DNA of 64,000 bases, taken from positions 5,283,461 through 5,347,460 of the forward strand of contig OZ242010.1 in assembly GCA_965204745.1 (NCBI GenBank). Direction: 5' to 3'. This document shows positions 10,083 to 49,492 of this stretch, piece by piece. Position numbers and translations under genes: made by a program. The first letter of the stretch is position 1. Each line of letters starts with the position of its first letter. A model generated the notes under the pieces. It was not told the origin of the DNA. It was given only the letters and a program-made list of their open reading frames with translations, and did no database searches. This DNA comes from Candidatus Latescibacterota bacterium. Lineage in GTDB: Bacteria > Latescibacterota > UBA2968.

Positions 10083-10117
10083 AAGTTGTCAGTTGTCAGT
10101 TGTCAGTTGTCAATGCG
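10083..10117. repeat. Family A heptamer tandem repeat (GTTGTCA)n
   Basis: gttgtcagttgtcagttgtcagttgtca. Also at 5633-5655 and 6781-6810, each followed by gtcc. Confidence 0.8.
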
Positions 10118-23254: not shown

Positions 23255-23336
23255 CTGAAGCCTCCTTTGCAAAGCTGTCGCACAGACCGGGTGCGACTTT
23301 TTCTTCGCGTTCAAAATCGCAATGGTGAACGGGAAA

Positions 23337-23366
23337 AATATAGGGAATCGCGCTCTTGTTTGTCAA
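23337..23366 (-). promoter_or_regulatory. Sigma70-type promoter for giant gene (TTGACA-18nt-TATATT), implying ~270-nt leader
   Basis: Minus-strand TTGACA (23366-23361), 18-nt spacer, TATATT (23342-23337). Confidence 0.35.
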
Positions 23367-23390
23367 GCGGTAAAATGACGATGGGAATTG

Positions 23391-23820
23391 GGACCTACCC
23401 CCTGGCCCCCTTCCTAAGAGGAAGGGGGAATGGCGAGAGGTTGTGCGAGGGATTGTGTGTAAGGGTTTTTGGATTTTCATGGCGTGATCCATTCGCCCAA
23501 AGCCATCAAAACAGCCCTGGATGCAAACCTTCAAGAAAGCCATGCGCTCCCCCTTTCCTTGTAGGAAAGGGGGCCGGGGGGATAGGTCCTGCGATGAAGG
23601 GGGAATGGCGAAAGGTTTTGCGAGGGATTGCGCGAGGGGGGTTTGGGGTTCTATGGCGTGATCCATTCGCCCAAAGCCATCAAAACAGCCCTGGATGCAA
23701 ACCTTTAAGAAAGCCATGCGCTCCCCCTTTCCGCGTAGGCACAGGCGTAGCCTACAATGAGCGAAGCGAATAACGGGGGCCGGGGGGATAGGGCTATGGC
23801 GACAGGGCGTGCGAAGGACA
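23391..23820. repeat. Family C composite repeat, two tandem full copies with ~75-nt conserved core
   Basis: Core catggcgtgatccattcgcccaaagccatcaaaacagccctggatgcaaacctt(c/t)aagaaagccatgcgctccccctttcc duplicated. Ends gtaggcacaggcgtagcctac...ggggccggggggataggg. Same family as 8367-8700 and 28872-29050. Confidence 0.75.
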
Positions 23821-24090
23821 CAGCGGAGTGGGAACGATGAAGCGGTGGTGGGGCGGTGGGTGGATCTCGCCTCTTACTTCTTGCCTCTTACTTGGGGATA
23901 GGGCTTGCGGTAGGGTGGTGTGGGGTAATCCGCGCAATCTGCGTAATCCGTTTAATCCGCGATTCAGACACGGCGGGGCGGATGGACAAGCACAGGGCAT
24001 CGCCCCTACACACACTGCTCGTTTTTTGTGTTTTTGTGCCTTTGAACTGGCTGTTGCCAGTTGTACCCCGCTCGTGGCTAAACTTCCATC

Positions 24091-28702: not shown

Positions 28703-29050
28703 CGGTGAAAGGTGAGAGGTGAAAGGTGAAAGGTGAGAGGGCCGCCCAACAGCCCATCCGCAAGTAAGAGGTGAGACGGGAGAGGTGAGAGGGCCGCCCA
28801 ACAGCCCATCCGCAAGTAAGAGGTGAGACGGGAGAGGTGAGAGGGCCGCCCAACAGCCCATCCGCAAGTAAGGGGGAATGGCGAGAGGTCTTCGGGGTTC
28901 ATGGCGTTATCCATTCGCCCAAAGCCATCAAATCCGCCCTGGATGCAACCCTTTAAGAAAGCCATGCGCTCCCCCTTTCCTCGTAGGCACAGGCGTAGCC
29001 TACAATGAGCGAAGCGAATAACGGGGGCCGGGGGGATAGGGCTATGGCGG
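28703..29050. repeat. Tandem ~52-nt units (family B, x2.5) plus one family C core copy in cusA upstream region
   Basis: Unit gggccgcccaacagcccatccgcaagtaagaggtgagacgggagaggtgaga repeated head-to-tail. Followed by the conserved core ...ccattcgcccaaagccatcaaa...gtaggcacaggcgtagcctac. Confidence 0.75.
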
Positions 29051-31227: not shown

Positions 31228-31397
31228 CGATCTCCTCCACGAAACAATGGAAAAATTTGCGTTGACAACTACACATTTGTTTATGATAATGCCTTCACAA
31301 TAGCTATTGCAGAGGAAAGCATGGGGCAATCAACGCCTCAGTTCAACCCAAACGCAGAATAACTTCGTTCAAAATTTTTAAGCGAAAAGGACAGGCG

Positions 31398-33143: not shown

Positions 33144-34309
33144 GGGTCGTGAACCGCTCGACCTTCATATTGGTCAAAGAAGCTCATCGGAATCGCCCTT
33201 TGGCATTTGTAGTTCGTACTGGAAACATAAGAGAAATGCTCGCCTAATTTTTCCCCAGGACACAACACAACGCCTGTGACGACACCTGTTTTTTCGTCCG
33301 TCAATGCAATCAGATATCGAATATCCGATGTCGTGAACCCCGGACATGCGGGAACATCTTCCTCGACTCGAGGGCTGTACATACCCAAGTCAATGGTGGG
33401 CGAATCTTGCACTTTGACTTCGAGTGCTTGATTGGGCAAATCGGGATAGCTTCCCATGAGTGGTTCATCCGCACGCGGCATATATCCCAGATACTGGGAA
33501 ATGAGCAGTTCGAGAAATTGCCCTCGGTTTTTGGTGGTAGCCCCCTCAATTGTTGCATTTATCAGACGGACCGCTACTTTCTCTCGCAATATTCGCAGTG
33601 CCAGTACTCGCCCCTGTCTGGGCTTGTCACGCATAGAAGCGCGTGGCCTTTCATAAAGTTGCGAAACCATTGTCGCAACTTTAGCGGTATCTGGATAATA
33701 GAGAATGGGGGGCCGCGTCTCCAAAATTTTCCTGCGTGTTTTATCGGTGATAATGAGTTGATGCTTGATTGTGGGCCTGCTAAATTTTCCGAAATGATCG
33801 ACGATATAATCCGATGATAAGAGGAAAATAGAACGCACTTCGAAGGTATGGGGATCGACGCGCACGATAACGAATCTAACATCTCGGTCACGCAAGTTTT
33901 CCCCAAAAGCGTACTCGATTTGGATACTTTCTCCTACGGGATTTCGATTCCATACTTGGAGATTGTACGCCGCGCCCGTTGTAACGATATAGGTGTCGAT
34001 ATATTCTCGCAGAATCCGCGGTACACCTTTCTTTTTTGGAGGGATGATCGTATAGGAAGCCCGATCACATGGCGGCGGCAACGGGTGTTTTTCAAGTGTT
34101 GCCGCGATCAAATTTCGCATATTCGTGCCGTCGGTTCTCGTTTTCCGCGTCAATGGAAATGAGGTTCCGATCAGCACGCTTAAGCACTCAACGAGGATTT
34201 TAGGCGGTGTGAGCGCGTTTTTATTTTTCGGCGGAATCGTTAAGGGGTTATTCAAAGCGAGCCCCATCTTGAAATGGCGAATGGACTTGTGCAATACCGC
34301 GTATCGCAT
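33140..34309 (-). CDS. Putative type II restriction endonuclease (PD-(D/E)xK)
   Basis: Convergent with the methyltransferase, overlapping by 4 nt. ...YPDLPNQALEVKVQ fits PD-x(n)-E-x-K. Low GC. Start uncertain (34309, 34267 or 34120). The N-terminal ~135 codons of the listed ORF overlap the uxaC-like gene and are rejected. Confidence 0.5.
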   Translation of the reverse strand: MRYAVLHKSIRHFKMGLALNNPLTIPPKNKNALTPPKILVECLSVLIGTSFPLTRKTRTDGTNMRNLIAATLEKHPLPPPCDRASYTIIPPKKKGVPRILREYIDTYIVTTGAAYNLQVWNRNPVGESIQIEYAFGENLRDRDVRFVIVRVDPHTFEVRSIFLLSSDYIVDHFGKFSRPTIKHQLIITDKTRRKILETRPPILYYPDTAKVATMVSQLYERPRASMRDKPRQGRVLALRILREKVAVRLINATIEGATTKNRGQFLELLISQYLGYMPRADEPLMGSYPDLPNQALEVKVQDSPTIDLGMYSPRVEEDVPACPGFTTSDIRYLIALTDEKTGVVTGVVLCPGEKLGEHFSYVSSTNYKCQRAIPMSFFDQYEGRAVHDP

Positions 34310-34311
34310 CT

Positions 34312-35553
34312 TCAATCCAGCAATTTGCCCCCGCCGAACATGGTCGAGATGTCGCGTTGGATGTCGGCTTGGGTGAGGGGCCAGCCCGCGGCGCGGAGCG
34401 ATTCGTATTTCTCGACGAAAACCGGGGCGATGACTTGGATGGCATGCGTCCATTTGTAGAGCAACTGGTCGAGGATGCGCGCATCGGAGTGCTGCGGGAC
34501 AAAACTCGTGCCGAGCAGTTCGAGGCGTTCGGCGGTAATTTCGCGGATGATGCTCGGATTGTTCAAAAACCACCAGCAGCCAAAGGGATGCACATTGGGA
34601 AATTTGCGGCCCGTCACGCAGAGTTCGTGCTGGTTCTCGCGCGAGAGCAAGGTGATGAGAAAATCGACCTCCGGCCAATCGCGGGCGATGCGCTCGAGGT
34701 TCGTCATATCCCACTTGCCCAAACTGTCGCCCCCGTCTTTGAGCACGGGGTTGACCTGCCGCGTCACCCCGATCATCATCGCCGATGGGATTTGCAATTC
34801 CCGCGCCGTGGGATACACCACGTTGCCCATCATCAGGGAGATGCTGTCCGCTGAGGGATATGCAAAATCCGGGGGAAGCGAGATCGCCATGTAGCGCGCG
34901 TCCATCTTTGCCACCCAGTCCGCGAGATAGCGGCGCAGTTCCGAAAAGGTCTTGTCGGACAACCCCTCTTCCACGTCATACCCCAAACCGCGCAGTTTGC
35001 CCACCGGCGTCGGCCAGTTCATCAACGCGCTGTCGAGGCGCAAGACCGCCTTGAAGCGCGGGTCAATGGAAACGCCCTGCTGCCACATCGCGCCTTCGGC
35101 GTCGTCGAGCGGATCATTGGTCATGTACACACAGGCGACCCCGGCTTTTTCAAACACCATATCGGTGTATTCTTCGGGCGTCTTGGAGGCGTAAAAGGCG
35201 CGAAACTCGGACAGGTCTGTAGCACGGGGATTCAGCCCCAAGCGGCTCATCACAGTGACCACGCCCAGTTGTGCTTCGGAAATCGGCGAACTGTTGCCCA
35301 CGAAAAGTCGTCGCCAGATCACGTCGGCCTGTTCCGCAGTGGGCATATTGTTAAACGCGGCCACCGAGACGCCTTCGGGCAACATGCGCGAACACTCGGC
35401 TTTGAGATAGTGGTAGGTCAGCAACTCGTCCGGCCCGGCCAGGTACAACGCGCCCATCGACGCGGGGTAGAGATGCGTGTGAATATCGACAATGGCGTGG
35501 TTTTGAAATGCGTTCTCCACGGCTTTTGCGATTGAAAAATTGGACATGTTCAT
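34312..35553 (-). CDS. uxaC: Glucuronate (uronate) isomerase-like amidohydrolase-superfamily protein
   Basis: N-terminal IVDIHTHLYP...HYLKAECSRM and C-terminal FGCWWFLNNP resemble the UxaC signatures (DYHCHL, HYKWRAMR, GSGWWFND) recalled from memory. Start at MNMSNF (35553). Confidence 0.55.
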   Translation of the reverse strand: MNMSNFSIAKAVENAFQNHAIVDIHTHLYPASMGALYLAGPDELLTYHYLKAECSRMLPEGVSVAAFNNMPTAEQADVIWRRLFVGNSSPISEAQLGVVTVMSRLGLNPRATDLSEFRAFYASKTPEEYTDMVFEKAGVACVYMTNDPLDDAEGAMWQQGVSIDPRFKAVLRLDSALMNWPTPVGKLRGLGYDVEEGLSDKTFSELRRYLADWVAKMDARYMAISLPPDFAYPSADSISLMMGNVVYPTARELQIPSAMMIGVTRQVNPVLKDGGDSLGKWDMTNLERIARDWPEVDFLITLLSRENQHELCVTGRKFPNVHPFGCWWFLNNPSIIREITAERLELLGTSFVPQHSDARILDQLLYKWTHAIQVIAPVFVEKYESLRAAGWPLTQADIQRDISTMFGGGKLLD

Positions 35554-36429: not shown

Positions 36430-37800
36430 TAGCCGCTCCTTCAAATTGTATGAAATCGACTTTATCGCATACTATCGCATGCTACACAAAAGCCAATGAC
36501 CGTTGATTCGATTGCCGCTTCTTTGGGCGTGCGTCCACGCGCTTACAACCTCGTGTCCGTCTTATCGTTCCTCCACGTCCGTTTATCGACTCGGCAGGGC
36601 TTGCCGCGTCGTATTGTGCAAGATTTCTTGCCGCGTTCAAATCGCGGTCAAGAACCAGTCCGCAGGACAAGCAGACATACTCACGCTCTGACAAATCCAT
36701 AGCAACCTTGCGCTGTCCACAGCCAGAGCATGTCTTCGTGCTGGCAAACCACCTGTCGGCTTTCTCAAAGGCCACGCCAGACCATTCGCACTTATACGCC
36801 AACATACGCAAGAAGCCTGCGATGCCGGCGCGGTGGAACGCACGCGACAGGCTTTTGTTGCGGCGCATACCGGCGACATTCAGCGTTTCGACAATCACCT
36901 TGCCAACGGTCGTCGCTTTGACCAAAGCGGAAGTGGCTTTGTGATGAACATCGTTGCGAATGGTTGTGATGCGTCCGTAGATGCGCTGGCGTTGGTCATA
37001 CAAGCGTTGCCTGCGATTACTGCGTTGGTTCTTGCCATGCACATGCTTTGAGCGTGCGATGGCTTTATCTACTCGGCGCAACTTCCGATACTGCGTATCA
37101 ATTGATCCTTTTGGATTGTCTATCGTTGTGCCATCAGAATAGGTTGCCAGCGTCTTGATGCCCATGTCAATGCCGATGGGTTCACCAGACCGCTTATCGG
37201 GCACAGCCTCGCCAGTATCGACAGATAGACAAACAAACCAGCGGTCATGCGTCTTTGTCACCGTGGCTTTGACAATCTCGCCGGGAAAGCGCAGACGCTC
37301 AGCCATCTTGACCCAACCAATTTTGGGGAGATAGACCTTTTTGCCGTCCACCTTGACCGTACCGGGCCCATTATCGGCTTGGTACGCACGCTTACCAGAC
37401 CGCTTGCGGTGTTTTGGAAACCTCGCTGGCGATTTCTTGTCTTGCCACCTCTTGATGGCAAAGTCCAAATCGTGAATGGCGTTCTTTGATGCGTTCTGCG
37501 ACAACTCGACAGACCATTCATACTCGGCATACTTGACCGCATTGAACTCCCGCTTGAGCGTATAGACCGACTTAAACACGCCCATATCCAGGGCGTGTTT
37601 GAACGCATTGAGGGCGTGATTATACGCAACACGAGCATAGCCACAGTGCTTTGACAACCGCGTCGCCTGGGCTTTATTCGGCTTCAGTGCATTTTTGTGC
37701 GTCTTAACCATTGGCCTATCCAATCTTCAACACCAACTGCTTTCGCTCGATAATATACGATTTTATACGATACGATACGATTATAGCGAAATGTTACTTA
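36430..37800 (-). mobile_element. IS200/IS605-family element of IS1341 type (tnpB only, no tnpA)
   Basis: Complete TnpB ORF. Lower GC. Upstream end carries atacgat direct repeats and ...gaaatgttacttacc. No Y1 transposase in the window. Confidence 0.6.
36482..37723 (-). CDS. tnpB: TnpB (OrfB) RNA-guided endonuclease-like transposase accessory protein
   Basis: N-terminal HTH-like region (KAQATRLSKHCGYARVAYNHAL). RuvC-I GIDMGI. Zn finger CSGCGQ...CLSCG. RuvC-III DRDLNAARN. Confidence 0.85.
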   Translation of the reverse strand: MDRPMVKTHKNALKPNKAQATRLSKHCGYARVAYNHALNAFKHALDMGVFKSVYTLKREFNAVKYAEYEWSVELSQNASKNAIHDLDFAIKRWQDKKSPARFPKHRKRSGKRAYQADNGPGTVKVDGKKVYLPKIGWVKMAERLRFPGEIVKATVTKTHDRWFVCLSVDTGEAVPDKRSGEPIGIDMGIKTLATYSDGTTIDNPKGSIDTQYRKLRRVDKAIARSKHVHGKNQRSNRRQRLYDQRQRIYGRITTIRNDVHHKATSALVKATTVGKVIVETLNVAGMRRNKSLSRAFHRAGIAGFLRMLAYKCEWSGVAFEKADRWFASTKTCSGCGQRKVAMDLSEREYVCLSCGLVLDRDLNAARNLAQYDAASPAESINGRGGTIRRTRGCKRVDARPKKRQSNQRSLAFV

Positions 37801-39775: not shown

Positions 39776-39875
39776 ATACTCCTGAAAAGATGGAAGTTTA
39801 GCCACGAGCGAGGTACAACTGGCAACAGCCCGTTCAAAAACACGAGCGGGGTACAACTGGCGACAGTCCGATCAA
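39776..39875. repeat. Family D dispersed repeat (two tandem copies)
   Basis: gatggaagtttagccacgagcg(a/g)ggtacaactggc(a/g)acag(c/t)cc occurs twice here and in reverse orientation at 24035-24100. Confidence 0.6.
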
Positions 39876-40035
39876 ACAAAGATACAAGAAACCTTTACAG
39901 GCTATCGTCGCGGTGGTGAAAGTAGGGGACTATAATTATAGCCCCCTACGCCATTCAATCTGGGGCATGTTGCGGCACGACCAGGATTTTGATGGCGAGA
40001 AATTCTATCGGATCACCGCGCAAACCCCTTGACCT

Positions 40036-40995
40036 TTAAGAGCGTATCTTATTTTTTTCGCTTTCTAATGCGAGGAGCATGACCTCTGTTGTCGTTAGCA
40101 AATCCAGCGCGTTGTGGAACAGAATATCGCGCATTTGCACGGCATTGCCCGAGAGCACAAAGCGGTGGTACGCGTCGGGAATTTCCGCGCCCGGAATATC
40201 GCCGCGCCGGATGCGGTGGCAAAGATGGCGTTCCAAGGTCTGCAACTTGCAGTTGGGCAGTTGCCGGCCCCAAAACCGCCGCGCCACATGCAACATGTCA
40301 ATATGCGCTTGTCGCAGGCAGAAGGGCACGCCCAAGAACGCGCACCGGTCGCGGATATAGGGCAAATCGTAGGACTTGCCATTGAAGCTGACAATCACGC
40401 TGGACGCATCCAACAGGGCGGCGAAGTGCGTCAACAGCGCGGCTTCTTCGGTGTAATCGCGGGCTAGCAGTTGGACGACGCGCAAGTCGCCATTGAACTG
40501 CGCCAAGATGCCGATCAAGAACAAGGGCGTGCCCGCGGTCAATCCCGTGGTTTCGATATCCACGCAAATCACATCGCGGGCATGGGCGTCGATGAGGGGA
40601 TGGAAAGTGTCGTAGCGATCCCACGGCACATTGCCCGCGTGCAACGCGCTGATCGCGCGTGTGTATCGCTCGGCAAATGCCCGGCCGCCGCCGTGCAGAA
40701 TTTCTCGCACGGTTTGGTCGATCCGCAGAAACGCGCCCGCGGGCGTCTGGATCGCTTGGCCCTGCGCCACTTCGCTCAACGAGAGGTGCAACCGCGCATC
40801 GGCCGCGGTCGCCATGACGCGCAAGTCGCGGGCATCGGGCACGGGCGTGCGGAATGAGGTCGCTGCGTTGCCGCGGTTTTTTTGATCGGTTGCAACGGGG
40901 CGGTGCTCGGATTCGGACACTTCGATCTCGTCTTTGTGTTTCAAATCGCGGCGGTTGAGCGCGGCAATGCGTTTTCGCATGTCATCGGAAATCAT
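40036..40995 (-). CDS. RNase H-like 3'-5' exonuclease (YprB/COG3359, PolB-exo-related family)
   Basis: ICVDIETTGL (exo I), SFNGKSYDLPYIRDR (exo II), HNALDLLTT (exo III). Confidence 0.55.
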   Translation of the reverse strand: MISDDMRKRIAALNRRDLKHKDEIEVSESEHRPVATDQKNRGNAATSFRTPVPDARDLRVMATAADARLHLSLSEVAQGQAIQTPAGAFLRIDQTVREILHGGGRAFAERYTRAISALHAGNVPWDRYDTFHPLIDAHARDVICVDIETTGLTAGTPLFLIGILAQFNGDLRVVQLLARDYTEEAALLTHFAALLDASSVIVSFNGKSYDLPYIRDRCAFLGVPFCLRQAHIDMLHVARRFWGRQLPNCKLQTLERHLCHRIRRGDIPGAEIPDAYHRFVLSGNAVQMRDILFHNALDLLTTTEVMLLALESEKNKIRS

Positions 40996-41082: not shown

Positions 41083-42987
41083 ATGAAACGCATCTATTTT
41101 TGGATTTTCTTTTTTTTGGTAGGGTGTCTCGCGCCCGATCCTGGGCAACGCGAAGCGGGTGAGGCCGTGCAGTCCAATGCGGTGATCCGCGAATCGCGCG
41201 CACCCGAGCAGATCGATCCCACAATTTTGATCGACCGCACCTTTGGCGAAGCCCCCGGCCTCGCTGAAAAAGTCAAAAGCGGCAAACTCCCTCCGGTATC
41301 TGAACGCCTGCCGGAAAATCCCCTCGTGGTCATCCCGATAGACACCATCGGACAATATGGGGGCATCTTGCGCCGCGCACTCACGGGCGACATCATCCAA
41401 ACAGCGGGCGCGAATAAAACCCTGAGCGAAAATCTGATGGGATTTTCCCGGCCCTTGCCGGACAGCATTGTACACAACCTCGCAGAAAGTTTTGAATTTC
41501 GAGACGCGGGTCGAACCGCGATTTTCAAAATCCGCAAGGGCATCAAGTGGTCCGATGGCGCGCCATTTACGGTTGACGACATCTTGTTTTGGTACTACGA
41601 CATGACCTTTGACGACAATGCCCGGCCGCACAACCAGCCGGTTCCCCCTTCGGTGTGGGTGGTGGATGGCAAGCCCATTGACTTGGAGAAGATCGACGAT
41701 CATACCTTGAAAGTCTCGTCGTCCAAACCCCTCGGCCGCGTCTTGCACGCGCTGTGTTCAGATGTGGTTGCACAGCCCAAACACCACTTGTCGCACTTGC
41801 ATCCGCGGTACAATCCGGAAGCGCGTTATGAGGAGTTTCGGGAAAAAGCCACGAATGCCATGCTCATCATGAAACCCGGGATGCCGCGCTTGTCTGCGTG
41901 GGTGCCCGTGGAATGGATTCGCGGGCAACGCATCGTTTATGAGCGCAATCCTTATTATTGGAAGGTGGATACCGCGGGCAATCAACTGCCTTATGTGGAC
42001 CGCCTCGAATTTACGGTCATCCAAGACCCGCAGGTTATTTTGCTCAAATTCGTCAATGGCGAGCTCGACTTGTTTGGGCGGTATTCCCGCATCAACATGT
42101 TTCCCACCCTGCGCGCCGAAGAAACAGAGGGCAAGTTCAAATTGCGAATCACCGGGCCGGACCGAGGGCCGGCGTACTATCTCAACTGGGATACGCCCAA
42201 ACCCGCGCTGCGCGAAGCCTTTCGCAACCGGGATGTGCGCGTCGCCATGTCGCACGCGATCAACCGCGAGGAGATCAACCAGATCGTGTATCACGGCTTG
42301 CTCGATCCCTCGGGATATTCTTTCGCGCCCTCCAACCCGCACTACGCCGAGGCGGCCTATCGCAAATATTCTGCCTTTGACCCGGCCCTATCCCGCGACC
42401 TTTTGGACAGGGCCGAGTACCGCGACACAGATGGCGATGGGTGGCGCGAGCTCCTGGACGGGTCGCGTTTTGAACTCAATATCGACGTGATTCCCGGGGT
42501 CGGCGTGGATGTGTCCGAACTCGTGTCCGAACACTGGCGCGACATTGGCATCAAAGCCAATTTGAATATCGCGTTGCGCGACATCGTATGGCCGCGCCGG
42601 CTCAACGGGGAATTTGACATCCACCACTGGGGACTCGAAGGCCCGGCCGATCCTTTGGGCCGCCTCAACGACTGGGCGATTATGGCGCCCACCGTGCCCT
42701 TTTGGCACCGCAATGCGTCCAAAGAAGGCCCGGCGTGGTTGCGCGAAGCCACGGCCCGCATCAAAAAGGTGTTGACGAGCGTCGATCCCATCGCCGTACA
42801 CCGGGAAATGACAGACGTGCGCGACCTCCACACCGACAATGTACCCGTTATCGTCGTCGGTTCCGCCTATTCCATCTGGGGGGCGAGCACGCGACTGGGC
42901 AATGTCCCGCTTCAAGGCAGCGCCGCAGACGTACATCGCGGCTGGGGCCGCCCCGTGTTCCACGAACAGATTTTTGTGAGGAAGTAG
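41083..42987 (+). CDS. ABC transporter substrate-binding lipoprotein, family 5 (DppA/OppA-like)
   Basis: Lipobox ...FFFLVGC at start 41083. ~630 aa, SBP_bac_5-like. Upstream of the permease and ATPase genes. Confidence 0.75.
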   Translation: MKRIYFWIFFFLVGCLAPDPGQREAGEAVQSNAVIRESRAPEQIDPTILIDRTFGEAPGLAEKVKSGKLPPVSERLPENPLVVIPIDTIGQYGGILRRALTGDIIQTAGANKTLSENLMGFSRPLPDSIVHNLAESFEFRDAGRTAIFKIRKGIKWSDGAPFTVDDILFWYYDMTFDDNARPHNQPVPPSVWVVDGKPIDLEKIDDHTLKVSSSKPLGRVLHALCSDVVAQPKHHLSHLHPRYNPEARYEEFREKATNAMLIMKPGMPRLSAWVPVEWIRGQRIVYERNPYYWKVDTAGNQLPYVDRLEFTVIQDPQVILLKFVNGELDLFGRYSRINMFPTLRAEETEGKFKLRITGPDRGPAYYLNWDTPKPALREAFRNRDVRVAMSHAINREEINQIVYHGLLDPSGYSFAPSNPHYAEAAYRKYSAFDPALSRDLLDRAEYRDTDGDGWRELLDGSRFELNIDVIPGVGVDVSELVSEHWRDIGIKANLNIALRDIVWPRRLNGEFDIHHWGLEGPADPLGRLNDWAIMAPTVPFWHRNASKEGPAWLREATARIKKVLTSVDPIAVHREMTDVRDLHTDNVPVIVVGSAYSIWGASTRLGNVPLQGSAADVHRGWGRPVFHEQIFVRK

Positions 42988-43191
42988 CGAGCGATCAACC
43001 CTCCCCATCCACCCCGGAGATATGTTTCGCCGACCTCTTGGGGATTGTGTGGCCTTCTCACGTCTCACGTCTCGCTTTTAGGGTTGTGTGGCCTCTTGCA
43101 TCTTTGGGCCGCCCCGTGCAGATTTTTGTTAGCGAAAGGCTATCTCCGCAGAGACGGCCTTTCCCGATTCCTTTACATTTGGGAGAATGAT

Positions 43192-44433
43192 ATGGATGAC
43201 CAACAATTGGAACAAGCCTTGCAGAAGGTTGGAAAAGAATGCTTTGTGACCTATCTTGAGAAGTTCGCCGACTTTTCGATAGTCAACAAAGATGTTGCCG
43301 CACAGATTAAGGCGGAGAAAAATTACACGGACAAAGCCTGCCAATATCGCACAAACGATGCCCGCCGCATCATCAGGGCAGGCCAAGCTGTGGATGCCTT
43401 GATCAATATTAGCCAATCAAATGTGCCAAGCCATGTTATGGAAAAAGCTCGCAAAATTGCCGAGCGGGCCAATGCCGAAAATAAGGGCAAGTCGGTCAAT
43501 GGCTCTGATCTGCTACAAATTATCGCGGCCTCAGTCGGTCTCACTTTTACCTACGCGATTGACAACATCCTTAAAGATGGTTGTTTTCTTGATCGGGCCA
43601 AACTGGAAATGGTACTACAGCGGCTCAAGGACAAGAAGAACCTGATTCTACAGGGGCCGCCGGGCACGGGCAAGACTTGGCTGGCTACCAAGTTGGCGTT
43701 TGCTCTGCTTGGGGGCAAAGACAGACGCAGGGTGGAGCGTTTCCAGTTTCATCCCAATCTCTCTTACGGGGACTTCATCCGCGGTTACCGTCCTCAAGGT
43801 GAAAAAGGGCCAACGCTCGTTGACGGTCCGTTTCTCAGGGTGGTTAATAACGCGAAGGAAGAGCCTGATCGCGATTACGCACTCGTCATTGAAGATATAA
43901 ACCGGGGCAACCCGGCCCAGATTTTCGGCGAGATGCTGACCCTGCTGGAAGCCGACAAGCGCGAGTACAGTGACGCACTGACGCTGGCCCATCCTCATAC
44001 TCCTGATGAGCGCGTCTATATTCCGCCTAATGTGTATGTTATTGGCACGATGAATGTCGCGGATCGCTCTTTGGCACTCTTCAATTTGGCTCTCCGACGC
44101 CGATTTGCGTTCGTTGACCTGGAACCCATTTTCGACACCACTTGGCGCGACTGGGTCAACCGGGAGTGTGACATAGATAGCGACTTTCTATCGACCATTG
44201 CAAATCGGCTGACGTCTCTGAATGAGCAAATCGCAGCCGATCACAATCTGGGGCCACAATTCCGAATCGGGCACAGCGTCGTAACCCCTCAACCCAACGC
44301 ATCGATTACTGATCCGATAAAGTGGTTCACAGATGTCGTCGAAACCGAGATAGGCCCCATGCTGGATGAGTACTGGTTCGATAATGCGGATGAGGCTCAA
44401 AAAGCAAAGCGAGCACTGCTGGAAGACCTGTGA
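43192..44433 (+). CDS. McrB-family AAA+ GTPase (5-methylcytosine restriction system subunit B-like)
   Basis: Walker A ILQGPPGTGKTW. McrB signatures GTMNVADRS and ALRRRF. GGGAGA SD 5 nt upstream of ATG. Markedly lower GC than flanks. Confidence 0.8.
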   Translation: MDDQQLEQALQKVGKECFVTYLEKFADFSIVNKDVAAQIKAEKNYTDKACQYRTNDARRIIRAGQAVDALINISQSNVPSHVMEKARKIAERANAENKGKSVNGSDLLQIIAASVGLTFTYAIDNILKDGCFLDRAKLEMVLQRLKDKKNLILQGPPGTGKTWLATKLAFALLGGKDRRRVERFQFHPNLSYGDFIRGYRPQGEKGPTLVDGPFLRVVNNAKEEPDRDYALVIEDINRGNPAQIFGEMLTLLEADKREYSDALTLAHPHTPDERVYIPPNVYVIGTMNVADRSLALFNLALRRRFAFVDLEPIFDTTWRDWVNRECDIDSDFLSTIANRLTSLNEQIAADHNLGPQFRIGHSVVTPQPNASITDPIKWFTDVVETEIGPMLDEYWFDNADEAQKAKRALLEDL

Positions 44434-44525
44434 TGATAGCCCCTAACACTATTGACCGTGCGGACCGCGCTATTGCCGAAGAGGCCATCGGCGCGGTGTT
44501 GGACAACGGAGAACTGATTGCTTGA
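44433..44525 (+). pseudogene. 30-codon ORF overlapping mcrB stop (TGATGA), truncated by family B repeat; possible mcrC remnant
   Basis: ATG at 44433 overlaps the McrB TGA. Reading frame terminates as the ctctcacc repeats begin. Confidence 0.2.
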
Positions 44526-44539
44526 ACGGTTGGGCGTTG

Positions 44540-44618
44540 GGCGGCCCTCTCACCTCTCACCTCTTGCCTCTTGCTTCTTGCCTCTCACCTCTCGCCTCTC
44601 ACCTCTCACCTTTCACCT
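44540..44618. repeat. Family B pyrimidine-rich octamer tandem repeat (ctctcacc/ctcttgcc)n
   Basis: Reverse-complement relative of the ggcaagag/gaggtgaga tracts at 6718-6766 and 28703-28880. Shares gggcggccc...caac. Confidence 0.7.
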
Positions 44619-44619
44619 T

Positions 44620-45618
44620 ATGATCAACTACATCATCCGCCGATTGTTGCACATGATCCCCACGCTGATCCTGATTTCCATGGTCAGCTTCGCGGTGATT
44701 CAAGCGCCGCCGGGCGATATGCTCACGTCTCGCCTCGCGGAATTGGCCGAGCAGGGCGAGTTGGGGTCCGAAAGCGCGATGGCGCAAATTGACGCCCTGC
44801 GCGAACGCTATGGGCTCAACGATCCGATCTACGTGCAATACGCGCGCTGGATCTGGAAAATCGTCAGCAAAGGCGATTTTGGGCAATCGTTCACGTACGA
44901 AATGGACGTGATGGAACTCTTGGCCGAACGCTTGGGACTCACCTTGACCCTGACGCTCTCCACCTTGATCTTTACGTGGATCGTCGCCATACCCATTGGC
45001 ATCTACTCGGCCACGCGGCAATATTCCATTGGGGATTACGGCTTTACCTTTCTCGGGTTCATCGGCCTTGCCACCCCCAACTTTTTGCTGGCACTGGTCA
45101 TTATGTTCATCCAAGTCTCGGTCTTTGAAGCCGAATCGGTCGGGGGGTTGCTCTCGCCCGAATACATCGGCGCGGCGTGGTCGTGGGCAAAATTTGTCGA
45201 TTTGCTCGAGCACATCTGGGTGCCCATTCTCGTCATTGGCACGGGCAGCACGGCGGGCATCATCCGCATTATGCGCGGCAACTTGCTCGACATCCTCGGG
45301 CAACAACACATTCAAACCGGGCGCGCCAAGGGCCTCAAAGAAGGCAAGGTCATCGTCAAGTACGGCGTCCGCATTGCCATCAACCCGTTGGTCAGCCGCC
45401 TCGGCCTCGAGTTGCCCGGCCTGCTCTCGGGCGCGGTTGTGACCGGCATCGTGCTCGGCTTGCCGACGGCCGGCCCCATTTTTTTGACCGCGCTCACGTC
45501 GCAAGACATGTACTTGGCGGGCGCATTCCTGCTCTTGGCCGCCACGTTTTTGCTCGTGGGCAATTTGTTGGCGGATATTCTTTTGGCATGGCTCGATCCG
45601 AGGATTCGCTATGAGTAG
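44620..45618 (+). CDS. ABC transporter permease (DppB/OppB-like)
   Basis: Start MINYIIRRLLHMIPTLILISMVSF is a typical DppB N-terminus. 6 TM. EAA-like loop. Confidence 0.8.
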   Translation: MINYIIRRLLHMIPTLILISMVSFAVIQAPPGDMLTSRLAELAEQGELGSESAMAQIDALRERYGLNDPIYVQYARWIWKIVSKGDFGQSFTYEMDVMELLAERLGLTLTLTLSTLIFTWIVAIPIGIYSATRQYSIGDYGFTFLGFIGLATPNFLLALVIMFIQVSVFEAESVGGLLSPEYIGAAWSWAKFVDLLEHIWVPILVIGTGSTAGIIRIMRGNLLDILGQQHIQTGRAKGLKEGKVIVKYGVRIAINPLVSRLGLELPGLLSGAVVTGIVLGLPTAGPIFLTALTSQDMYLAGAFLLLAATFLLVGNLLADILLAWLDPRIRYE

Positions 45619-46741
45619 CATCGATCAAACGACGCCGGAGGTACAGGCGGAAGAAGCCGCGACCGCGGGCACGTATTCGCAGCGCGAGTTGATCTGGCGG
45701 CGGTTCAAAAAACACCGCGCAGGCGTCGTGGGGGGATACGTGGTGCTCTTTCTGTATGTCTGCGTTTTCATGGGCGAATTTTTGGCGCCGCACGACCCGG
45801 CGCATCGCTACTACAACTACGTTCATTTGCCCGCGCAGCGCGTTCACATCTTTTCCGAGAACGGCATCCACTGGCCCTTTGTCTATGGGATCAAAAAGGC
45901 GTTTGACCGGCAAACCGGCATCAAAACCTATACGGAAGACGCCTCGGCGCGCTACCCGGTGTACCCGTTTGCCCGCGGCGCGGAATACGCATTTTACGGC
46001 CTCTTTCGCACGGATATTCACTTGTTTGGCACGGGCAAGGGCAACCCGCTGTTCCTCTTGGGCACGGACCGGTTTGGGCGCGACATGCTCTCGCGCATCA
46101 TCGTGGGCGGGCGCATCTCCCTCACCATTGGCCTGCTCGCGGTGCTCATCAGCCTCACCCTCGGCTCTGCGCTCGGCGTGATCTCGGGCTATTACGGCGG
46201 CCATGTCGATAACATCATCCAGCGCATCATCGAACTGATCTTTGCGTTTCCATCCATCCCCATTCTCATGGCCCTCAGCGCGATCTTGCCCCCAGAGTGG
46301 CCCTCGCATCTCGTTTTTATGGGCATCGTCACCGTGCTCGCGCTCGTGGGTTGGGGCGGCCTCGCCCGGGAAATCCGCGGCAAGACCCTGTCCATCCGCG
46401 AAGCCGATTTCGTGCTGGCGGCCCGCGTGGCCGGCGCCAAAGACAGGCGCGTCATTTTTCGGCACTTGCTCCCGTCGATGTTTAGCCACATCATCGTCAT
46501 CGCAACCCTGGCGATTCCGGGATTCATCCTCGGCGAAAGCACGTTGAGTTTTCTCGGCTTGGGCATCAAACCGCCCATGACCTCGTGGGGCTTGCTCTTG
46601 GCCGACGCGATGAATATTCACTCCCTCAGCTTGTATCCCTGGCTGCTTTTGCCCGGCGTGTGCATCATCATCGCGGTGCTCGCGTTCAATTTTCTCGGGG
46701 ATGGGTTGCGCGATGCCGCGGATCCGTATTCGAGCAGATAG
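45611..46741 (+). CDS. ABC transporter permease (DppC/OppC-like)
   Basis: 8-nt overlap with upstream permease. N-terminal cytoplasmic extension then 6 TM. Confidence 0.8.
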   Translation: MSSIDQTTPEVQAEEAATAGTYSQRELIWRRFKKHRAGVVGGYVVLFLYVCVFMGEFLAPHDPAHRYYNYVHLPAQRVHIFSENGIHWPFVYGIKKAFDRQTGIKTYTEDASARYPVYPFARGAEYAFYGLFRTDIHLFGTGKGNPLFLLGTDRFGRDMLSRIIVGGRISLTIGLLAVLISLTLGSALGVISGYYGGHVDNIIQRIIELIFAFPSIPILMALSAILPPEWPSHLVFMGIVTVLALVGWGGLAREIRGKTLSIREADFVLAARVAGAKDRRVIFRHLLPSMFSHIIVIATLAIPGFILGESTLSFLGLGIKPPMTSWGLLLADAMNIHSLSLYPWLLLPGVCIIIAVLAFNFLGDGLRDAADPYSSR

Positions 46742-46764
46742 CGCGGATCGTTTGAGGACTTCCC

Positions 46765-47754
46765 ATGACACAACCGCTTTTGGACATCTGCGACCTCAAA
46801 ACCTATTTTTACACGGACGATGGGATCGTGCGCGCAGTCGATGGCGTGTCCCTGTCCATGATGCCGCAACAGACCCTGGGCGTGGTGGGCGAATCCGGGT
46901 GCGGCAAAAGCATCACGGCATTTTCGACCATGCGCCTCATCCCAAGCCCGCCGGGCAAAATCGAAAACGGGCAGATTTTGTTTCGCAAAACCCCAAAAAG
47001 CGATCCCATCGACCTGACCCAACTCAACCCCAAAGGCGCGCAGATGCGCGGGATTCGCGGGAATGACATCGCCATGATCTTTCAAGAACCCATGACCTCG
47101 CTCAGCCCGGTCCACACCGTGGGCAACCAGATCGGCGAAGCCATTATGTTGCACCAAAATGCGGACAAAACCGAGGCTCGGGAACGCGCCATTGACGCGC
47201 TCAACAAGGTGCGCCTGCCGCGTCCGGACCGCCAGGTCGATGCCTATCCCCACGAACTTTCGGGCGGGATGCGCCAACGCGCGATGATCGCCATGGCCCT
47301 GTCGTGCAACCCCAACTTGCTCATCGCGGACGAACCCACCACGGCCTTAGATGTGACGGTGCAGGCCCAAATTTTGGACCTGATGCGCCAACTGCAATCC
47401 GATATCGGCATGGCGATTATGCTCATCACGCACGACTTGGGCGTGGTCGCCAGCATGGCGGATTACGTCGCGGTGATGTATTTGGGCAAGATCGTCGAGT
47501 ATGCCGACACGCGCACCATTTTCAAAAACCCGCGCCATCCCTATACCAAGGGCTTGCTGAACTCCCTTCCCCAAGTGGGGCACAAACGCCGGCTCGTGCC
47601 CATTGAAGGCGCGATTCCAGATCCGTTTGAAATCCCCCAGGGCTGTGCTTTTGCCCCGCGTTGCCCGCACGCCATGCGAAAGTGCCGCGAAGAACCGCAA
47701 CTCCTCGAAATCGCATCGGGCCATCGCGTGAGTTGTTGGTTGGAAAATGATTGA
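46765..47754 (+). CDS. ABC transporter ATP-binding protein (DppD/OppD-like)
   Basis: Walker A GESGCGKS, signature LSGGMRQR, Walker [14 protein letters not shown]-terminal oligopeptide-ABC extension with Cys motif. Confidence 0.85.
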
Positions 47755-48796
47755 TGGACAAAACGCCATGACAAAAACGAACGCGCAACCCCTCCTCGAA
47801 GTGACGCAACTCAAGACCCATTTCCCAATTAAAAAGGGCATTTGGCGGCGCGTGGTGGGCTATGTCAAGGCCGTAGATGGGATCGACCTGACCCTGTACC
47901 GCGGGGAGACCCTCGGTTTGGTGGGCGAATCCGGCTGCGGCAAGACCACGGCGGGGCGGTCGATCATTCGCCTGATCGAGCCTTCGGCTGGGAAGATCGT
48001 TTTCCACCACAACGGCGAGCCGATTGACCTGCGCGGCTTGGGCAAGGAAGATATCCGCAACCTGCGGCGCGAATTGCAATACATCTTCCAAGACCCCTTC
48101 TCGTCGCTCAACCCGCGCATGACGGTTTTCGACCTCGTGGCCGAACCCCTCGTCATCAACCGAGTCGCGTCCGGCGCCGAACTCGAAGACCGCATCGAGC
48201 AGTTGCTCATCCGCGTGGGCTTGCGTCCGGATCACCTGCGCCGCTATCCCCATGCGTTTTCGGGGGGGCAACGCCAGCGCATCGGCATTGCCCGCGCCCT
48301 CGCGCTCAATCCCAAACTCGTCATTGCCGACGAGCCGGTCTCTGCCCTCGACGTGTCCGTACAAGCGCAGGTCATCAACCTCCTCGAAGACCTGCAAGAA
48401 GCCTTTGGCCTGACGTATTTGTTCATCGCGCACGACCTCGGCGTCGTGGAACACATTTCGGATCGCGTGGCGGTGATGTACCTCGGTCAGATCATCGAGA
48501 TCACCACCTCTGAGCGGCTCTATCAAAATCCCCTGCATCCCTATACCGCGGCCCTTTTATCCGCCGTTCCAGTTGCGGACCCGGATGATCGACGCCAGCG
48601 CATCTCTATCGAAGGCGATGTGCCCGATCCCGCGGATGCCCCATCCGGATGCAAATTTCACACGCGCTGCCTGTACGCGCAGGACAAGTGCAAAACAGAA
48701 GCGCCCCAGCTAAGAGAAATCGAACCGGGGCACGAGGTGAGTTGCCACTTCGCGGGCGAACTCACATTCTCCGATCACCACGTCGAACCCGCTTGA
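47747..48796 (+). CDS. ABC transporter ATP-binding protein (DppF/OppF-like)
   Basis: Walker [10 protein letters not shown], signature FSGGQRQR, Walker [13 protein letters not shown]. 8-nt overlap with the upstream gene. Confidence 0.85.
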
Positions 48797-48825
48797 CCTG
48801 GGACCGTGCTTTGGTATTTTGAAAA

Positions 48826-49104
48826 ATGAACTGGACCGTCACAATAGGTACGAGGGCACAAAAACAAATCAGGCGTTTACCCGAACAGATCAAAAAGAAT
48901 CTTGTTGCTCTGATCAGAGAGATTGAAGTGGCAGGTCCAGTTCGTGGGAACTGGCCTAATTATAGCTCTCTCGGAAGAAATCGGCACCATTGTCACATCA
49001 AAAAAGGAAGACCGACTTACGTCTCTGTTTGGGAAGTAAAGGACAAAAACATCAAACTGGTAGAGGTGACTTATGCAGGTACCCATGAAAAAGCACCGTA
49101 CTGA
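48826..49104 (+). CDS. RelE/ParE-superfamily toxin (HigB-like; toxin-first gene order)
   Basis: 92-aa basic protein (RelE/ParE-like by size and charge). Precedes and overlaps an HTH antitoxin gene. Very low GC (~43%). Confidence 0.5.
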   Translation: MNWTVTIGTRAQKQIRRLPEQIKKNLVALIREIEVAGPVRGNWPNYSSLGRNRHHCHIKKGRPTYVSVWEVKDKNIKLVEVTYAGTHEKAPY

Positions 49105-49429
49105 AGCAGACACCATTGAACTGCGCTTTCTCGGTCCGCAAGAAAAACGCAAGCAAGCCATTCGCGTACTCGATTCCATGGGCTTTGTGGATATATCCGA
49201 TTCAGTTCCCTGGCAGGCGTGTTTTTCGTATGCTGACGAACAGTTGCCCAGCATTTCTCTGGCGGGAGCAAGGGAAAAGGAAGGGTTGACACAACGAGAA
49301 CTGTCTCGGTTGACGGGCATTCCGCAACGACGTATTTCAGAAATGGAAAATGGCAAACGGCCCATTCAAAAAGAAACAGCGAAAAAACTGGGGAAAACAC
49401 TCAACATCAGCTATAAAGTCTTTCTGTGA
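49085..49429 (+). CDS. HTH XRE-family antitoxin (HigA-like)
   Basis: C-terminal helix-turn-helix LTQRELSRLTGIPQRRISEMENGKRPI. Overlaps the toxin 3' end by ~20 nt. Confidence 0.6.
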   Translation: MKKHRTEADTIELRFLGPQEKRKQAIRVLDSMGFVDISDSVPWQACFSYADEQLPSISLAGAREKEGLTQRELSRLTGIPQRRISEMENGKRPIQKETAKKLGKTLNISYKVFL

Positions 49430-49492
49430 ACCGACAGATCGCCTAAAAATATCCACTGAAATTTTTTGACGCTCGTCTTTCCGAGGGAAGCG

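What the first reader, a model, noticed from the sequence alone, without database searches (positions are those of the whole stretch)
42988..44620. mcrB-like GTPase gene inserted inside a dpp/opp ABC operon, without an intact mcrC
The order is substrate-binding protein (ends 42987), McrB-like AAA+ GTPase (43192-44433, low GC), then permease, permease, ATPase, ATPase. The insert is bracketed by pyrimidine-rich repeat tracts: ttctcacgtctcacgtctcgc on the left and (ctctcacc)n on the right. Only a 30-codon ORF follows mcrB, overlapping its stop (TGATGA), before running into the repeat. McrB normally requires McrC for cleavage. This is therefore either a decaying McrBC or an McrB-like GTPase working with a non-adjacent partner.
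Basis: partly seen in the sequence, partly recalled or inferred. Interest (0 to 1): 0.55.

Follow-up and report, generated by a model that had tools for sequence, protein, structure and literature searches.

The report
Orphan mcrB left by gutted McrBC
A foreign McrBC restriction cassette landed in the 3-base gap between two genes of a peptide-transporter operon, then lost almost all of its nuclease gene (mcrC), leaving an intact, still-constrained mcrB GTPase gene; this is an ordinary case of defence-system decay, unusually well documented.

Summary
A 413-aa McrB-family AAA+ GTPase gene (43192-44433) sits between the substrate-binding-protein gene and the first permease gene of an Opp/Dpp operon, and a 30-codon ORF follows it.

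- **Insertion:** two Latescibacterota relatives have the binding-protein stop and the permease ATG only 3 nt apart. The 1632-nt segment 42988-44619 is therefore an insertion, and its GC3 is low (0.575 against 0.71-0.79).
- **mcrC remnant:** a relative (L085) keeps the McrC N-terminal motif IGRIPVR joined to the McrC C-terminus, the footprint of a roughly 330-codon internal deletion. The window has a more eroded copy. In sister strains a 325-nt repeat element splits it.
- **No McrC in the window.** All four outgroup homologue loci examined have McrC adjacent.
- **mcrB is not a dead gene:** dN/dS is 0.27-0.37 among three McrC-less lineages (P ≤ 1e-5 against neutrality).
- **Signs of relaxed constraint:** the window protein deviates at 7 of 129 near-invariant positions. 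One is the catalytic Walker B Glu→Asp.
- **Flanking tracts:** these are heptamers (not octamers) of a genome-wide dispersed repeat family, not insertion-specific ends.

A McrC partner elsewhere in the genome could not be tested.

The parts
41083..42987 (+). Opp/Dpp-type substrate-binding protein gene (SBP_bac_5). It is native and lies immediately upstream of the insertion.
   Evidence: Pfam E 1.5e-58. It is 89% identical to the Latescibacterota orthologues L005 and L006. The start is taken from the 634-aa gene call in L001.
42988..44619 (+). The inserted segment (1632 nt), which replaces a 3-nt spacer.
   Evidence: In L005 and L006 the arrangement is SBP stop TAG + 3 nt + permease ATG. GC of the segment is 0.526.
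42988..43105 (.). Variable repeat-containing spacer. It holds GGGGATTGTGTGGCC plus TCTCACG heptamers, then a second GGGTTGTGTGGCC unit.
   Evidence: Strains differ here by a 44-nt indel and by heptamer copy number.
43106..43132 (+). Duplicate of the SBP gene 3' end: GGGCCGCCCCGTG followed by CAGATTTTTGTTAG, as at 42945-42980 but lacking 9 nt.
   Evidence: Each motif occurs only at these two places in the 64 kb. The duplicate is conserved in L001, L085, L128 and L132.
43192..44433 (+). mcrB-like gene, 413 aa. It comprises an N-terminal helical domain (aa 1 to about 95), an AAA+ GTPase module and a lid (aa about 115-413). A GGGAG ribosome-binding site lies upstream.
   Evidence: Motifs read from the sequence: Walker A GPPGTGKT 155-162; Walker B E234-D235; MNVADR 286-291; RRRF 302-305.
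44430..44525 (+). mcrC remnant, (V)MIAPNTIDRADRAIAEEAIGAVLDNGELIA*. It overlaps the mcrB stop and is non-functional.
   Evidence: It is homologous to the L085 and L128 remnants, which carry the McrC IGRIPVR motif and C-terminus. In L132 and L001 a 325-nt element splits it.
44526..44619 (.). Dispersed repeat, GTTGGGCGTTGGGCGGCC followed by about 10 heptamers (CCTCTCA). It abuts the permease ATG.
   Evidence: The same unit is found at 28704-28872 on the minus strand.
44620..48796 (+). Native downstream operon genes, all intact: permease OppB-like, permease OppC-like, and two ATPases.
   Evidence: Pfam. They are 85-96% identical to the L005 and L006 orthologues.

Best explanation
This is the relic of a horizontally acquired McrBC (Type IV, modification-dependent) restriction cassette.

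**History.** The cassette integrated into the 3-nt spacer between the binding-protein and permease genes of an Opp/Dpp operon, in the ancestor of this Latescibacterota species-level clade. A single internal deletion of about 1 kb then removed nearly all of mcrC, which encodes the PD-(D/E)xK nuclease and GTPase activator. Only its first codons (about 10-30) and last few codons remain. These are now eroding neutrally through indels and, in sister strains, a repeat-element insertion. The locus therefore cannot restrict DNA on its own.

**What mcrB probably still does (inferred).** mcrB is still an intact ORF and is probably co-transcribed with the transporter genes. It is under moderate purifying selection. 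Its product most likely still binds GTP, forms hexamers and binds DNA through its N-terminal domain. That domain is shared with methyl-directed Type II restriction enzymes.

**Signs of relaxation.** Coupling to McrC is no longer under full constraint. The window lineage has changed the catalytic Walker B Glu to Asp and has altered the L3/SRH segment. Hydrolysis is therefore expected to be slow.

**Shown:** the insertion, the mcrC deletion, the integrity of mcrB and the constraint on it.
**Inferred:** co-transcription, residual nuclease-free DNA and GTP binding, and reduced GTPase activity.
For: **Insertion**
- L005 and L006 lack it and have a 3-nt junction; L007 also lacks it.
- GC3 is 0.575 against 0.71-0.79 for the operon genes.
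- The SBP dS to L005 is 0.96, against 0.10 among carriers.

**mcrC deletion**
- The L085 remnant matches McrC aa 17-32 (IGRIPVRKL) and, in another frame, McrC aa 356-383 (E 1.9e-4).
- L128 is intermediate between L085 and the window.
- The window shares the first 32 nt and GATTGCTTGA with L085.
- A 325-nt element splits the remnant in L132 and L001.

**McrC is the norm for this subfamily**
- It is adjacent in L003, L004, L086 and L087.
- No McrC is found in the window.

**Constraint on mcrB**
- dN/dS is 0.27-0.37, with P between 5e-8 and 9e-6.
- There is one codon indel and no stop codon at 90% DNA identity, while the adjacent remnant is full of indels.
- Of the 36-member cluster, 13 of the 15 members listed are full length at 413 aa; the other 21 were not listed.

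**Relaxation**
- The window deviates at 7 of 129 sites that are at least 95% conserved; other homologues average 0.97 (maximum 4).
- E235D corresponds to E. coli E280, the residue that activates the catalytic water (PMC6624300). The equivalent TgMcrB E357A abolishes hydrolysis (PMC7680126).
- P0128 and P0132, which also lack mcrC, still have Glu, so the change came after the loss.

**Other**
- No terminator-like site lies between mcrB and the permease gene.
- N-terminal domain aa 6-77 matches aa 201-272 of plasmid proteins whose N-terminus is a methyl-directed REase.
Against: - **Constraint is still clear.** A dN/dS of about 0.3 is only modestly above the one intact control pair (AAA module 0.19, mcrC 0.31). 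mcrB may therefore be fully functional with a partner I could not see.
- **Single ancestral deletion is inferred.** It rests on shared junction sequence that is itself much eroded. Independent deletions are not formally excluded.
- **Glu→Asp is conservative.** Its effect on the GTPase is not known.
- **Co-transcription** rests only on the absence of consensus terminators and promoters.
- **L128 context.** The RNaseH-SBP-mcrB block there sits among different genes. This is either a real rearrangement or a chimeric short-read assembly.
Confidence: 0.8

Rival explanations
1. mcrB is fully functional in restriction because it works in trans with a McrC, or another nuclease, encoded elsewhere in the 5.5-Mb genome. 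Loss of the adjacent mcrC would then have been tolerated.
For: - Purifying selection on mcrB.
- The residues that relay McrC binding are kept: N237 (= E. coli N282) and D290 (= D336). So are the MNxxDR motif and the arginine fingers (PMC6624300).
- The McrBC census notes that multiple McrBC systems often occur in one genome and may cooperate (PMC11090510).
Against: - No McrC in 64 kb.
- The L3/SRH segment that senses McrC has substitutions in each orphan lineage.
- The catalytic Glu has changed to Asp in this lineage.
- The McrC N-terminal domain must fit the cognate McrB hexamer pore (established from PMC6624300 and PMC7680126).
Confidence: 0.15
2. The orphan McrB has been exapted to a new function that needs no nuclease, as happened with S. 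aureus PcdA. One possibility is a slow GTPase switch that binds DNA or another cellular target, expressed with the peptide transporter.
For: - Retention with dN/dS of about 0.3 after mcrC loss, in three lineages and in 13 of the 15 listed members of a 36-member cluster.
- An N-terminal domain found in none of the other 118 listed homologues.
Against: - Unlike PcdA, Walker A, the arginine fingers and the lid are intact.
- P0128 and P0132 keep the canonical Glu.
- The time since mcrC loss is short (dS about 0.1-0.2).
- No positive evidence for any new partner.
Confidence: 0.2
3. mcrB is a pseudogene in waiting, with no function at all. The ORF survives only because too little time has passed, or because stop codons inside the operon would be polar on the permease and ATPase genes.
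For: - Excess of changes at near-invariant positions, including a catalytic residue.
- dN is 2-3 times that of the neighbouring native genes for the same strain pair.
- The gene lies inside an operon with no terminator before the permease gene.
Against: - Avoiding polarity would select against stop codons and frameshifts but not against missense changes. Yet nonsynonymous changes are about 3-fold under-represented (P ≤ 1e-5).
- The adjacent remnant decayed heavily over the same interval.
Confidence: 0.2
4. mcrB is native at this position and the relatives lost it, or the arrangement is an assembly artefact.
For: Short-read contigs break at the flanking repeats (L001, L002, L085). L128 shows a different downstream context.
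Against: - Three increasingly distant relatives lack it, two of them with a tight 3-nt junction.
- Composition is foreign.
- Two independent megabase-scale contigs show the same order: the window's source (5.48 Mb) and L132 (5.28 Mb).
Confidence: 0.03

Closest known systems
E. coli K-12 McrBC (EcoKMcrBC), Type IV modification-dependent restriction
   Same: - The AAA+ GTPase and lid module align end to end (aa 115-412 against McrB 162-458, E about 1e-71).
- Walker A, the MNxxDR signature and RRRF are present.
- The ancestral gene order was mcrB then mcrC with overlapping stop and start.
   Different: - mcrC is reduced to about 30 codons.
- The N-terminal domain is unrelated to the 5mC-binding DUF3578/ADAM domain.
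- Walker B is E-D instead of D-E.
- The gene is embedded in a transporter operon.
The 'IEEINR' McrB subfamily with PF10117 McrC (homologues P0003-P0120, for example loci L003, L004, L087)
   Same: 63-70% identity across the AAA+ and lid module. The remnant matches the N- and C-termini of their McrC.
   Different: - Those loci have a full 381-396-aa McrC.
- Their N-terminal domains differ (DUF8425/DUF8426 or others).
- 114 of 120 have E-E in Walker B, whereas this lineage has E-D.
S. aureus PcdA, an McrB-family protein co-opted for cell division (PMC10602043)
   Same: It is an McrB-family NTPase without McrC, and the Walker B general-base Glu is altered.
   Different: PcdA has a degraded Walker A, has lost the C-terminal helical bundle and one arginine finger, carries EVE domains, and is old and fixed in a family-level clade. 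Here all those elements are intact, the mcrC loss is recent, and no new function is shown.
Type IIM methyl-directed restriction enzymes (PADLOC mREase_II PDLC03212 / Pfam DUF6998), 290-aa proteins on E. coli and Pantoea plasmids
   Same: Their C-terminal aa 201-272 are homologous to aa 6-77 of this McrB (37-39% identity, E about 1e-17).
   Different: There the domain is fused to a nuclease domain rather than to an AAA+ GTPase. In most of the family (about 159 hits) it is a stand-alone protein of about 95 aa with unknown function.

Membership tests
McrB family (AAA+ GTPase subunit of McrBC) | Full-length similarity of the AAA+ core and lid to characterised McrB | tested here: met
   NCBIfam PRK11331 gives 241.8 bits, E 1.2e-71, over aa 115-412. 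This is below the equivalog cut-off of 637 because the N-terminal domain differs. PDB 6HZ4/6UT6 gives E about 1e-71. A PF28529 McrB_lid hit is on record for the 99%-identical P0001.
McrB family (AAA+ GTPase subunit of McrBC) | Walker A motif GxxGxGK[T/S] | tested here: met
   GPPGTGKT at aa 155-162. K161 corresponds to E. coli K207.
McrB family (AAA+ GTPase subunit of McrBC) | Walker B acidic pair with a catalytic Glu (E. coli D279-E280; E-E in this subfamily) | tested here: inconclusive
   The window has E234-D235 (codons GAA GAT). The catalytic Glu is replaced by Asp. 114 of 120 homologues have E-E, and the McrC-less relative P0128 still has E-E. The effect on activity is unknown.
McrB family (AAA+ GTPase subunit of McrBC) | McrB signature NxxD (MNxxDR) motif, arginine finger and sensor 2 (RRRF) | tested here: met
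   MNVADR at 286-291 and RRRF at 302-305. All are invariant columns.
McrB family (AAA+ GTPase subunit of McrBC) | N-terminal DNA or modified-base reader domain | tested here: inconclusive
   - A helical domain of about 95 aa is present (AF2 pLDDT 87.7).
- It has no PDB fold match (best E 1.8) and no Pfam family.
- It is homologous to the C-terminal domain of methyl-directed REases.
- DNA binding has not been shown.
McrB family (AAA+ GTPase subunit of McrBC) | GTP-specific hydrolysis and hexamer formation | not testable with these tools
   Needs biochemistry.
Functional McrBC Type IV restriction system | Adjacent intact McrC (PF10117/DUF2357 N-terminal domain plus PD-(D/E)xK nuclease) | tested here: not met
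   Only a 30/31-codon remnant is present. No McrC was found in the window by tblastn (best E 0.47) or by Pfam on 38 ORFs of the window.
PcdA-like exapted McrB | McrC absent, together with degenerate Walker A, lost lid bundle and lost arginine finger | tested here: not met
   McrC is absent, but Walker A, the lid (aligned to E. coli 350-458) and the RRR are intact. PcdA features are taken from PMC10602043.

The most novel reading that the evidence does not exclude
After losing its nuclease partner, this McrB has been kept by selection as a stand-alone, operon-embedded, slow GTPase. It would use a previously undescribed helical reader domain, shared with methyl-directed restriction enzymes and about 160 small stand-alone proteins. 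Its role would be nuclease-free: for example sensing or occluding modified foreign DNA, or a house-keeping function coupled to peptide uptake. That would make it an early-stage snapshot of the McrB-to-PcdA type of exaptation.
Probability: 0.2. Interest if true: 0.55.

Novelty: new member of a known kind. Interest (0 to 1): 0.3.

Why it matters
Loss of defence systems is common, but the steps are rarely this easy to read. This locus shows four things:

- the empty site in relatives;
- the deletion footprint that joins both ends of mcrC;
- graded erosion of that remnant across strains;
- a partner gene that stays intact under measurable constraint while its McrC-coupling elements begin to drift.

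It is a useful natural example for asking what an McrB does without McrC, and whether orphan McrBs are a route to exaptation. It also links an uncharacterised small helical domain to two architectures of modification-dependent restriction enzymes. It does not reveal a new kind of system.

Tried and rejected
- **Exact look-ups.** Look-ups of the window protein and of its identical cluster member P0134 returned no gene record, so the rest of the 5.48-Mb source genome could not be reached.
- **JGI metagenome scan with McrB.** It returned only distant homologues (≤61% identity) and none with the same N-terminal domain.
- **Foldseek of the N-terminal domain model against the PDB.** No hit with E < 1, so the fold is unassigned.
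- **N-terminal domain against phages.** tblastn gave no match.
- **Rfam on the whole window.** Nothing.
- **Promoter and terminator scan.** No convincing promoter in front of mcrB or the permease gene, and no terminator between them. This is only weak support for co-transcription.
- **Flanking repeats as ends of a mobile element.** Rejected as specific ends. They are not inverted repeats, they belong to a family present at about 6 other places in the window, and their copy number varies between strains.
- **RNase_H_2-superfamily gene upstream (40036-40995) as a possible nuclease partner.** Rejected, because it is present at the same place in relatives that lack mcrB.
- **Walker B Glu→Asp as a hallmark of all McrC-less copies.** Rejected, because P0128 and P0132 lack mcrC and keep Glu.
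Full report
**1. The observation**

ORF listing and Pfam give this order:

- an SBP_bac_5 substrate-binding-protein gene ending at 42987
- a 413-codon ORF at 43192-44433 with an AAA_5 domain
- two BPD_transp_1 permease genes, 44620-45618 and 45611-46741
- two ABC_tran/oligo_HPY ATPase genes, 46765-47754 and 47747-48796

The 413-aa product matches E. coli McrB from the start of the AAA+ module to the last residue:

- NCBIfam PRK11331: 241.8 bits, E 1.2e-71, aa 115-412 against McrB 162-458.
- PDB 6HZ4 and 6UT6: E about 1e-71.

The start at 43192 is supported by a GGGAG site upstream. It is also supported by homologues of the N-terminal domain that begin with the same MDDQ.LE sequence.

The gene is compositionally foreign. 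GC is 0.514 and GC3 0.575, against GC3 0.71-0.79 in the operon genes.

A 30-codon ORF (44433-44525) follows. Its ATG shares one base with the mcrB stop. An in-frame GTG at 44430 gives the same 4-nt overlap seen between mcrB and mcrC in intact homologues.

Two details needed correcting:

- The repeat unit is 7 nt, not 8. It is CCTCTCA x10.4 at 44546-44618 and TCTCACG x2.6 at 43056-43073.
- The tracts belong to a family spread over the window. There are 21 matches against 0.8 expected, at about 6714, 23865, 24141 and 28704-28872, often directly upstream of start codons.

**2. It is an insertion**

A scan of one genome per species with the binding protein found Candidatus Latescibacterota MAGs as the nearest relatives. 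L005 and L006 are 89% identical and L007 is 74% identical.

All three have the same RNase_H_2 gene, binding-protein gene, permeases and ATPases, but no mcrB. In L005 and L006 the binding-protein stop codon is followed by 3 nt and then the permease ATG. L007 has an 82-nt spacer. The 1632 nt at 42988-44619 are therefore an insertion into a minimal intergenic spacer.

Carriers of the insertion:

- L001 and L002, 99% identical McrB
- L132, on a 5.28-Mb contig
- L128 and L129, 90% identical
- L085, 86% identical

L132 reproduces the full order, binding protein - mcrB - permeases - ATPases, in an independent assembly. A cluster member identical to the window protein lies on a 5.48-Mb contig. Mis-assembly is therefore very unlikely.

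Synonymous divergence of the binding-protein gene dates the insertion. It falls after the split from L005 (dS 0.96) and before the carriers diverged (dS about 0.10).

**3. The 30-codon ORF is what remains of mcrC**

The McrB subfamily is very large: 7927 hits, with 63-70% identity over the AAA+ and lid module across phyla. In all four outgroup loci examined, a PF10117 McrC gene lies immediately downstream (L003, L004, L086, L087).

In L085 the ORF after mcrB reads MIALNTIDRAGELGSVAKRAIGRIPVRKLGRP*.

- It matches McrC N-termini, which carry ..IGRIPVRNIWLLMLYA. The same motif is VIPVRNIYYML in my recollection of the E. coli McrC sequence, which I did not check with a tool.
- The next 80 nt, in another frame, match the McrC C-terminus (McrC aa 356-383, 43% over 28 aa, E 1.9e-4).

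This is the footprint of an internal deletion of about 330 codons.

The other carriers fit a series of further erosion:

- L128 carries the same 5' part, joined to the same 3' junction as the window (GATTGCTTGAACGGTTGGGCG...).
- The window shares the first 32 nt (94% identity) and the GATTGCTTGA piece, but has further indels.
- In L132 and L001 a 325-nt composite of the genome's dispersed repeats is inserted right after TGATGAT and splits the remnant.

The most parsimonious history is one ancestral deletion followed by neutral erosion. This is an inference, because the junction is itself degraded.

No McrC is encoded elsewhere in the window. tblastn with three McrCs gave a best E of 0.47, and a Pfam sweep of 38 ORFs of the window found none.

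**4. mcrB is still constrained, but loosened**

*Constraint*

- Among the three McrC-less lineages (window, L128, L085), mcrB has 90% DNA identity. There is a single codon indel and no stop codon.
- dN/dS is 0.27-0.37. The binomial P against neutrality lies between 5e-8 and 9e-6.
- For the same strain pair, the native neighbours give 0.175 (binding protein) and 0.25 (RNase_H_2).
- One intact McrBC pair (L003 against L004) gives 0.19 for the AAA module and 0.31 for mcrC.
- Of the 36-member cluster (at least 90% identity), 13 of the 15 members listed are full length at 413 aa; the other 21 were not listed.

The gene is therefore not evolving as a pseudogene.

*Relaxation*

- The window protein deviates at 7 of the 129 positions that are at least 95% conserved in 117 other homologues. 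These are I173L, E193G, L207P, E235D, V297F, D298N and L390M.
- P0002 deviates at 5 such positions. Other homologues average 0.97, with a maximum of 4.
- E235 corresponds to E. coli E280, the Walker B glutamate that activates the catalytic water (PMC6624300). The equivalent E357A abolishes hydrolysis in T. gammatolerans McrB (PMC7680126).
- 114 of 120 homologues have E-E at this site. Only this lineage has E-D.
- P0128 and P0132, which also lack mcrC, keep Glu (GAA GAG against GAA GAT). The change therefore followed the loss of mcrC.
- Each orphan lineage has substitutions in aa 294-300 (E. coli 339-345), which overlaps loop L3. PMC6624300 places D336 and L339 in that loop, whose conformation changes when McrC binds.
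- The relay residues themselves are kept: N237 and D290, equivalent to N282 and D336.

**5. The N-terminal domain**

- Residues 1 to about 95 have no counterpart in the other 118 listed homologues and no Pfam family.
- The AlphaFold2 model is all-helical (pLDDT 87.7; alignment of only 5 sequences). It has no PDB neighbour (best E 1.8).
- Sequence relatives are mostly stand-alone proteins of about 95 aa (159 hits).
- aa 6-77 also align to aa 201-272 of 290-aa proteins on E. coli and Pantoea plasmids (37-39% identity, E 5e-17 and 4e-18).
- The N-terminal 160 aa of those plasmid proteins match PADLOC 'Type II methyl-directed restriction enzyme' (E 1.7e-70) and DUF6998.

The domain is thus shared between two architectures of modification-dependent restriction enzymes. 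That fits a target-recognition role, but DNA binding is an inference.

**6. How it most likely works**

Without McrC there is no nuclease and no GTPase activator, so the locus cannot restrict. This follows from established McrBC mechanism (PMC6624300, PMC7680126).

No terminator-like site lies between mcrB and the permease gene, and no good promoter lies in front of either. mcrB is therefore probably transcribed with the operon, but this is weakly supported.

My best reading, at 0.8 for the relic history, is a dead restriction cassette. Its GTPase subunit is still made and still under selection, with a probably slowed active site.

Why it is retained is open. The three non-exclusive options and my rough weights are:

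- a partner elsewhere in the genome (0.15)
- a nuclease-free role, as in PcdA (PMC10602043; 0.2)
- slow decay, with ORF integrity partly protected by operon polarity (0.2). The 3-fold deficit of missense changes argues against this as the only cause.

**7. Comparison and novelty**

[quoted passage not shown] All sequence-defining features are met, except that the catalytic Glu is replaced by Asp.

The locus fails the definition of a McrBC system, because it has no McrC. It is not PcdA-like in structure, since Walker A, the lid and the arginine fingers are intact.

Orphaned defence genes and insertions into operons are known phenomena. This is a new member of a known kind, with an unusually legible history and an undescribed N-terminal domain. 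Interest: 0.3.

**8. Limits**

- The rest of the source genome could not be read.
- The control for dN/dS is a single pair.
- In L128 the RNase_H_2 - binding protein - mcrB block sits in a different context, next to a Type II RM system. This may be a rearrangement or a short-read chimera.
- The 27-nt duplicate of the binding-protein gene's 3' end just upstream of mcrB (43106-43132) is real and conserved in all carriers, but I have no tested explanation for it.

Noticed in passing
window 5634-5653, 6714-6803, 8368-8651, 10084-10274, 23387-24194, 28704-28987, 39803-39876, 43039-43105, 44526-44619: The genome is full of dispersed, MITE-like composite repeats, for example a 174-nt unit x1.8 at 23421-23739 and a 52-nt unit x3 at 28715-28872. 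They end in heptamer arrays (CCTCTCA/CTCTTGC, GACAACT), often placed directly upstream of start codons. One 325-nt composite copy inserted into the mcrC remnant in sister strains (L132 9247-9571). This resembles the short tandemly repeated heptamers I recall from cyanobacteria, but the organism here is a Latescibacterota.
   Followed up: partly
window 42945-42980 and 43106-43132: The last ~36 nt region of the binding-protein gene (GGGCCGCCCCGTG ... CAGATTTTTGTGAG) is repeated 161 nt downstream, just before the mcrB 5' UTR, lacking 9 nt. Each motif occurs only at these two places in the 64 kb. The duplicate is present in every carrier (L001, L085, L128, L132). It may be a footprint of the integration event, but it is unexplained.
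   Followed up: partly
window 31247-34298: A strain-specific Type II restriction-modification module. It comprises an Eco57I/N6_Mtase/TaqI_C methyltransferase (31398-33143, PADLOC MTase_II 704 bits, GC3 0.46) and a convergent ORF (33140-34714, minus strand) that matches PADLOC REase_II (E 2e-15). The whole segment is absent from the 97-98% identical contig L001.
   Followed up: partly
window 36482-37723 (minus strand): A TnpB/IS605 OrfB-type gene (HTH_OrfB_IS605, OrfB_IS605, Cas12f1-like_TNB), also present in L001 and L132.
   Followed up: no
window 48800-49430: A low-GC patch (0.46-0.50) lies immediately after the last ATPase gene. It holds a 92-aa ORF with no family match (48826-49104) that overlaps an HTH_3 (Xre/HigA-like) gene (49073-49429). 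This may be a toxin-antitoxin pair, and the HTH gene is also present in L132.
   Followed up: no
window 10610-23717 (minus strand): Two giant ORFs (2457 and 1971 aa). The 1971-aa ORF (17802-23717) has fibronectin type III, GLUG and T9SS-associated domains; the 2457-aa ORF (10610-17983) was not scanned, and the internal 180-nt and 297-nt tandem repeats lie within it.
   Followed up: no
L128 1-5823 and 10418-14603: In this 90%-identical carrier, the block RNase_H_2 - binding protein - mcrB - mcrC remnant is flanked on both sides by genes that differ from the window. Downstream these are adh_short, UPF0150, an N6_N4 methyltransferase and RE_MjaI. The breakpoints fall at heptamer arrays. This is either a repeat-mediated rearrangement that separates the binding protein from its permeases, or a chimeric assembly.
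   Followed up: partly
proteins P0121-P0255; L088 6001-6646: The N-terminal domain of this McrB defines an unannotated family of about 160 small (about 95-aa) stand-alone proteins. They share conserved GKECFVT, two Cys residues and RxIIxAG. In L088 the gene overlaps a 119-aa ORF that has no family match.
   Followed up: partly
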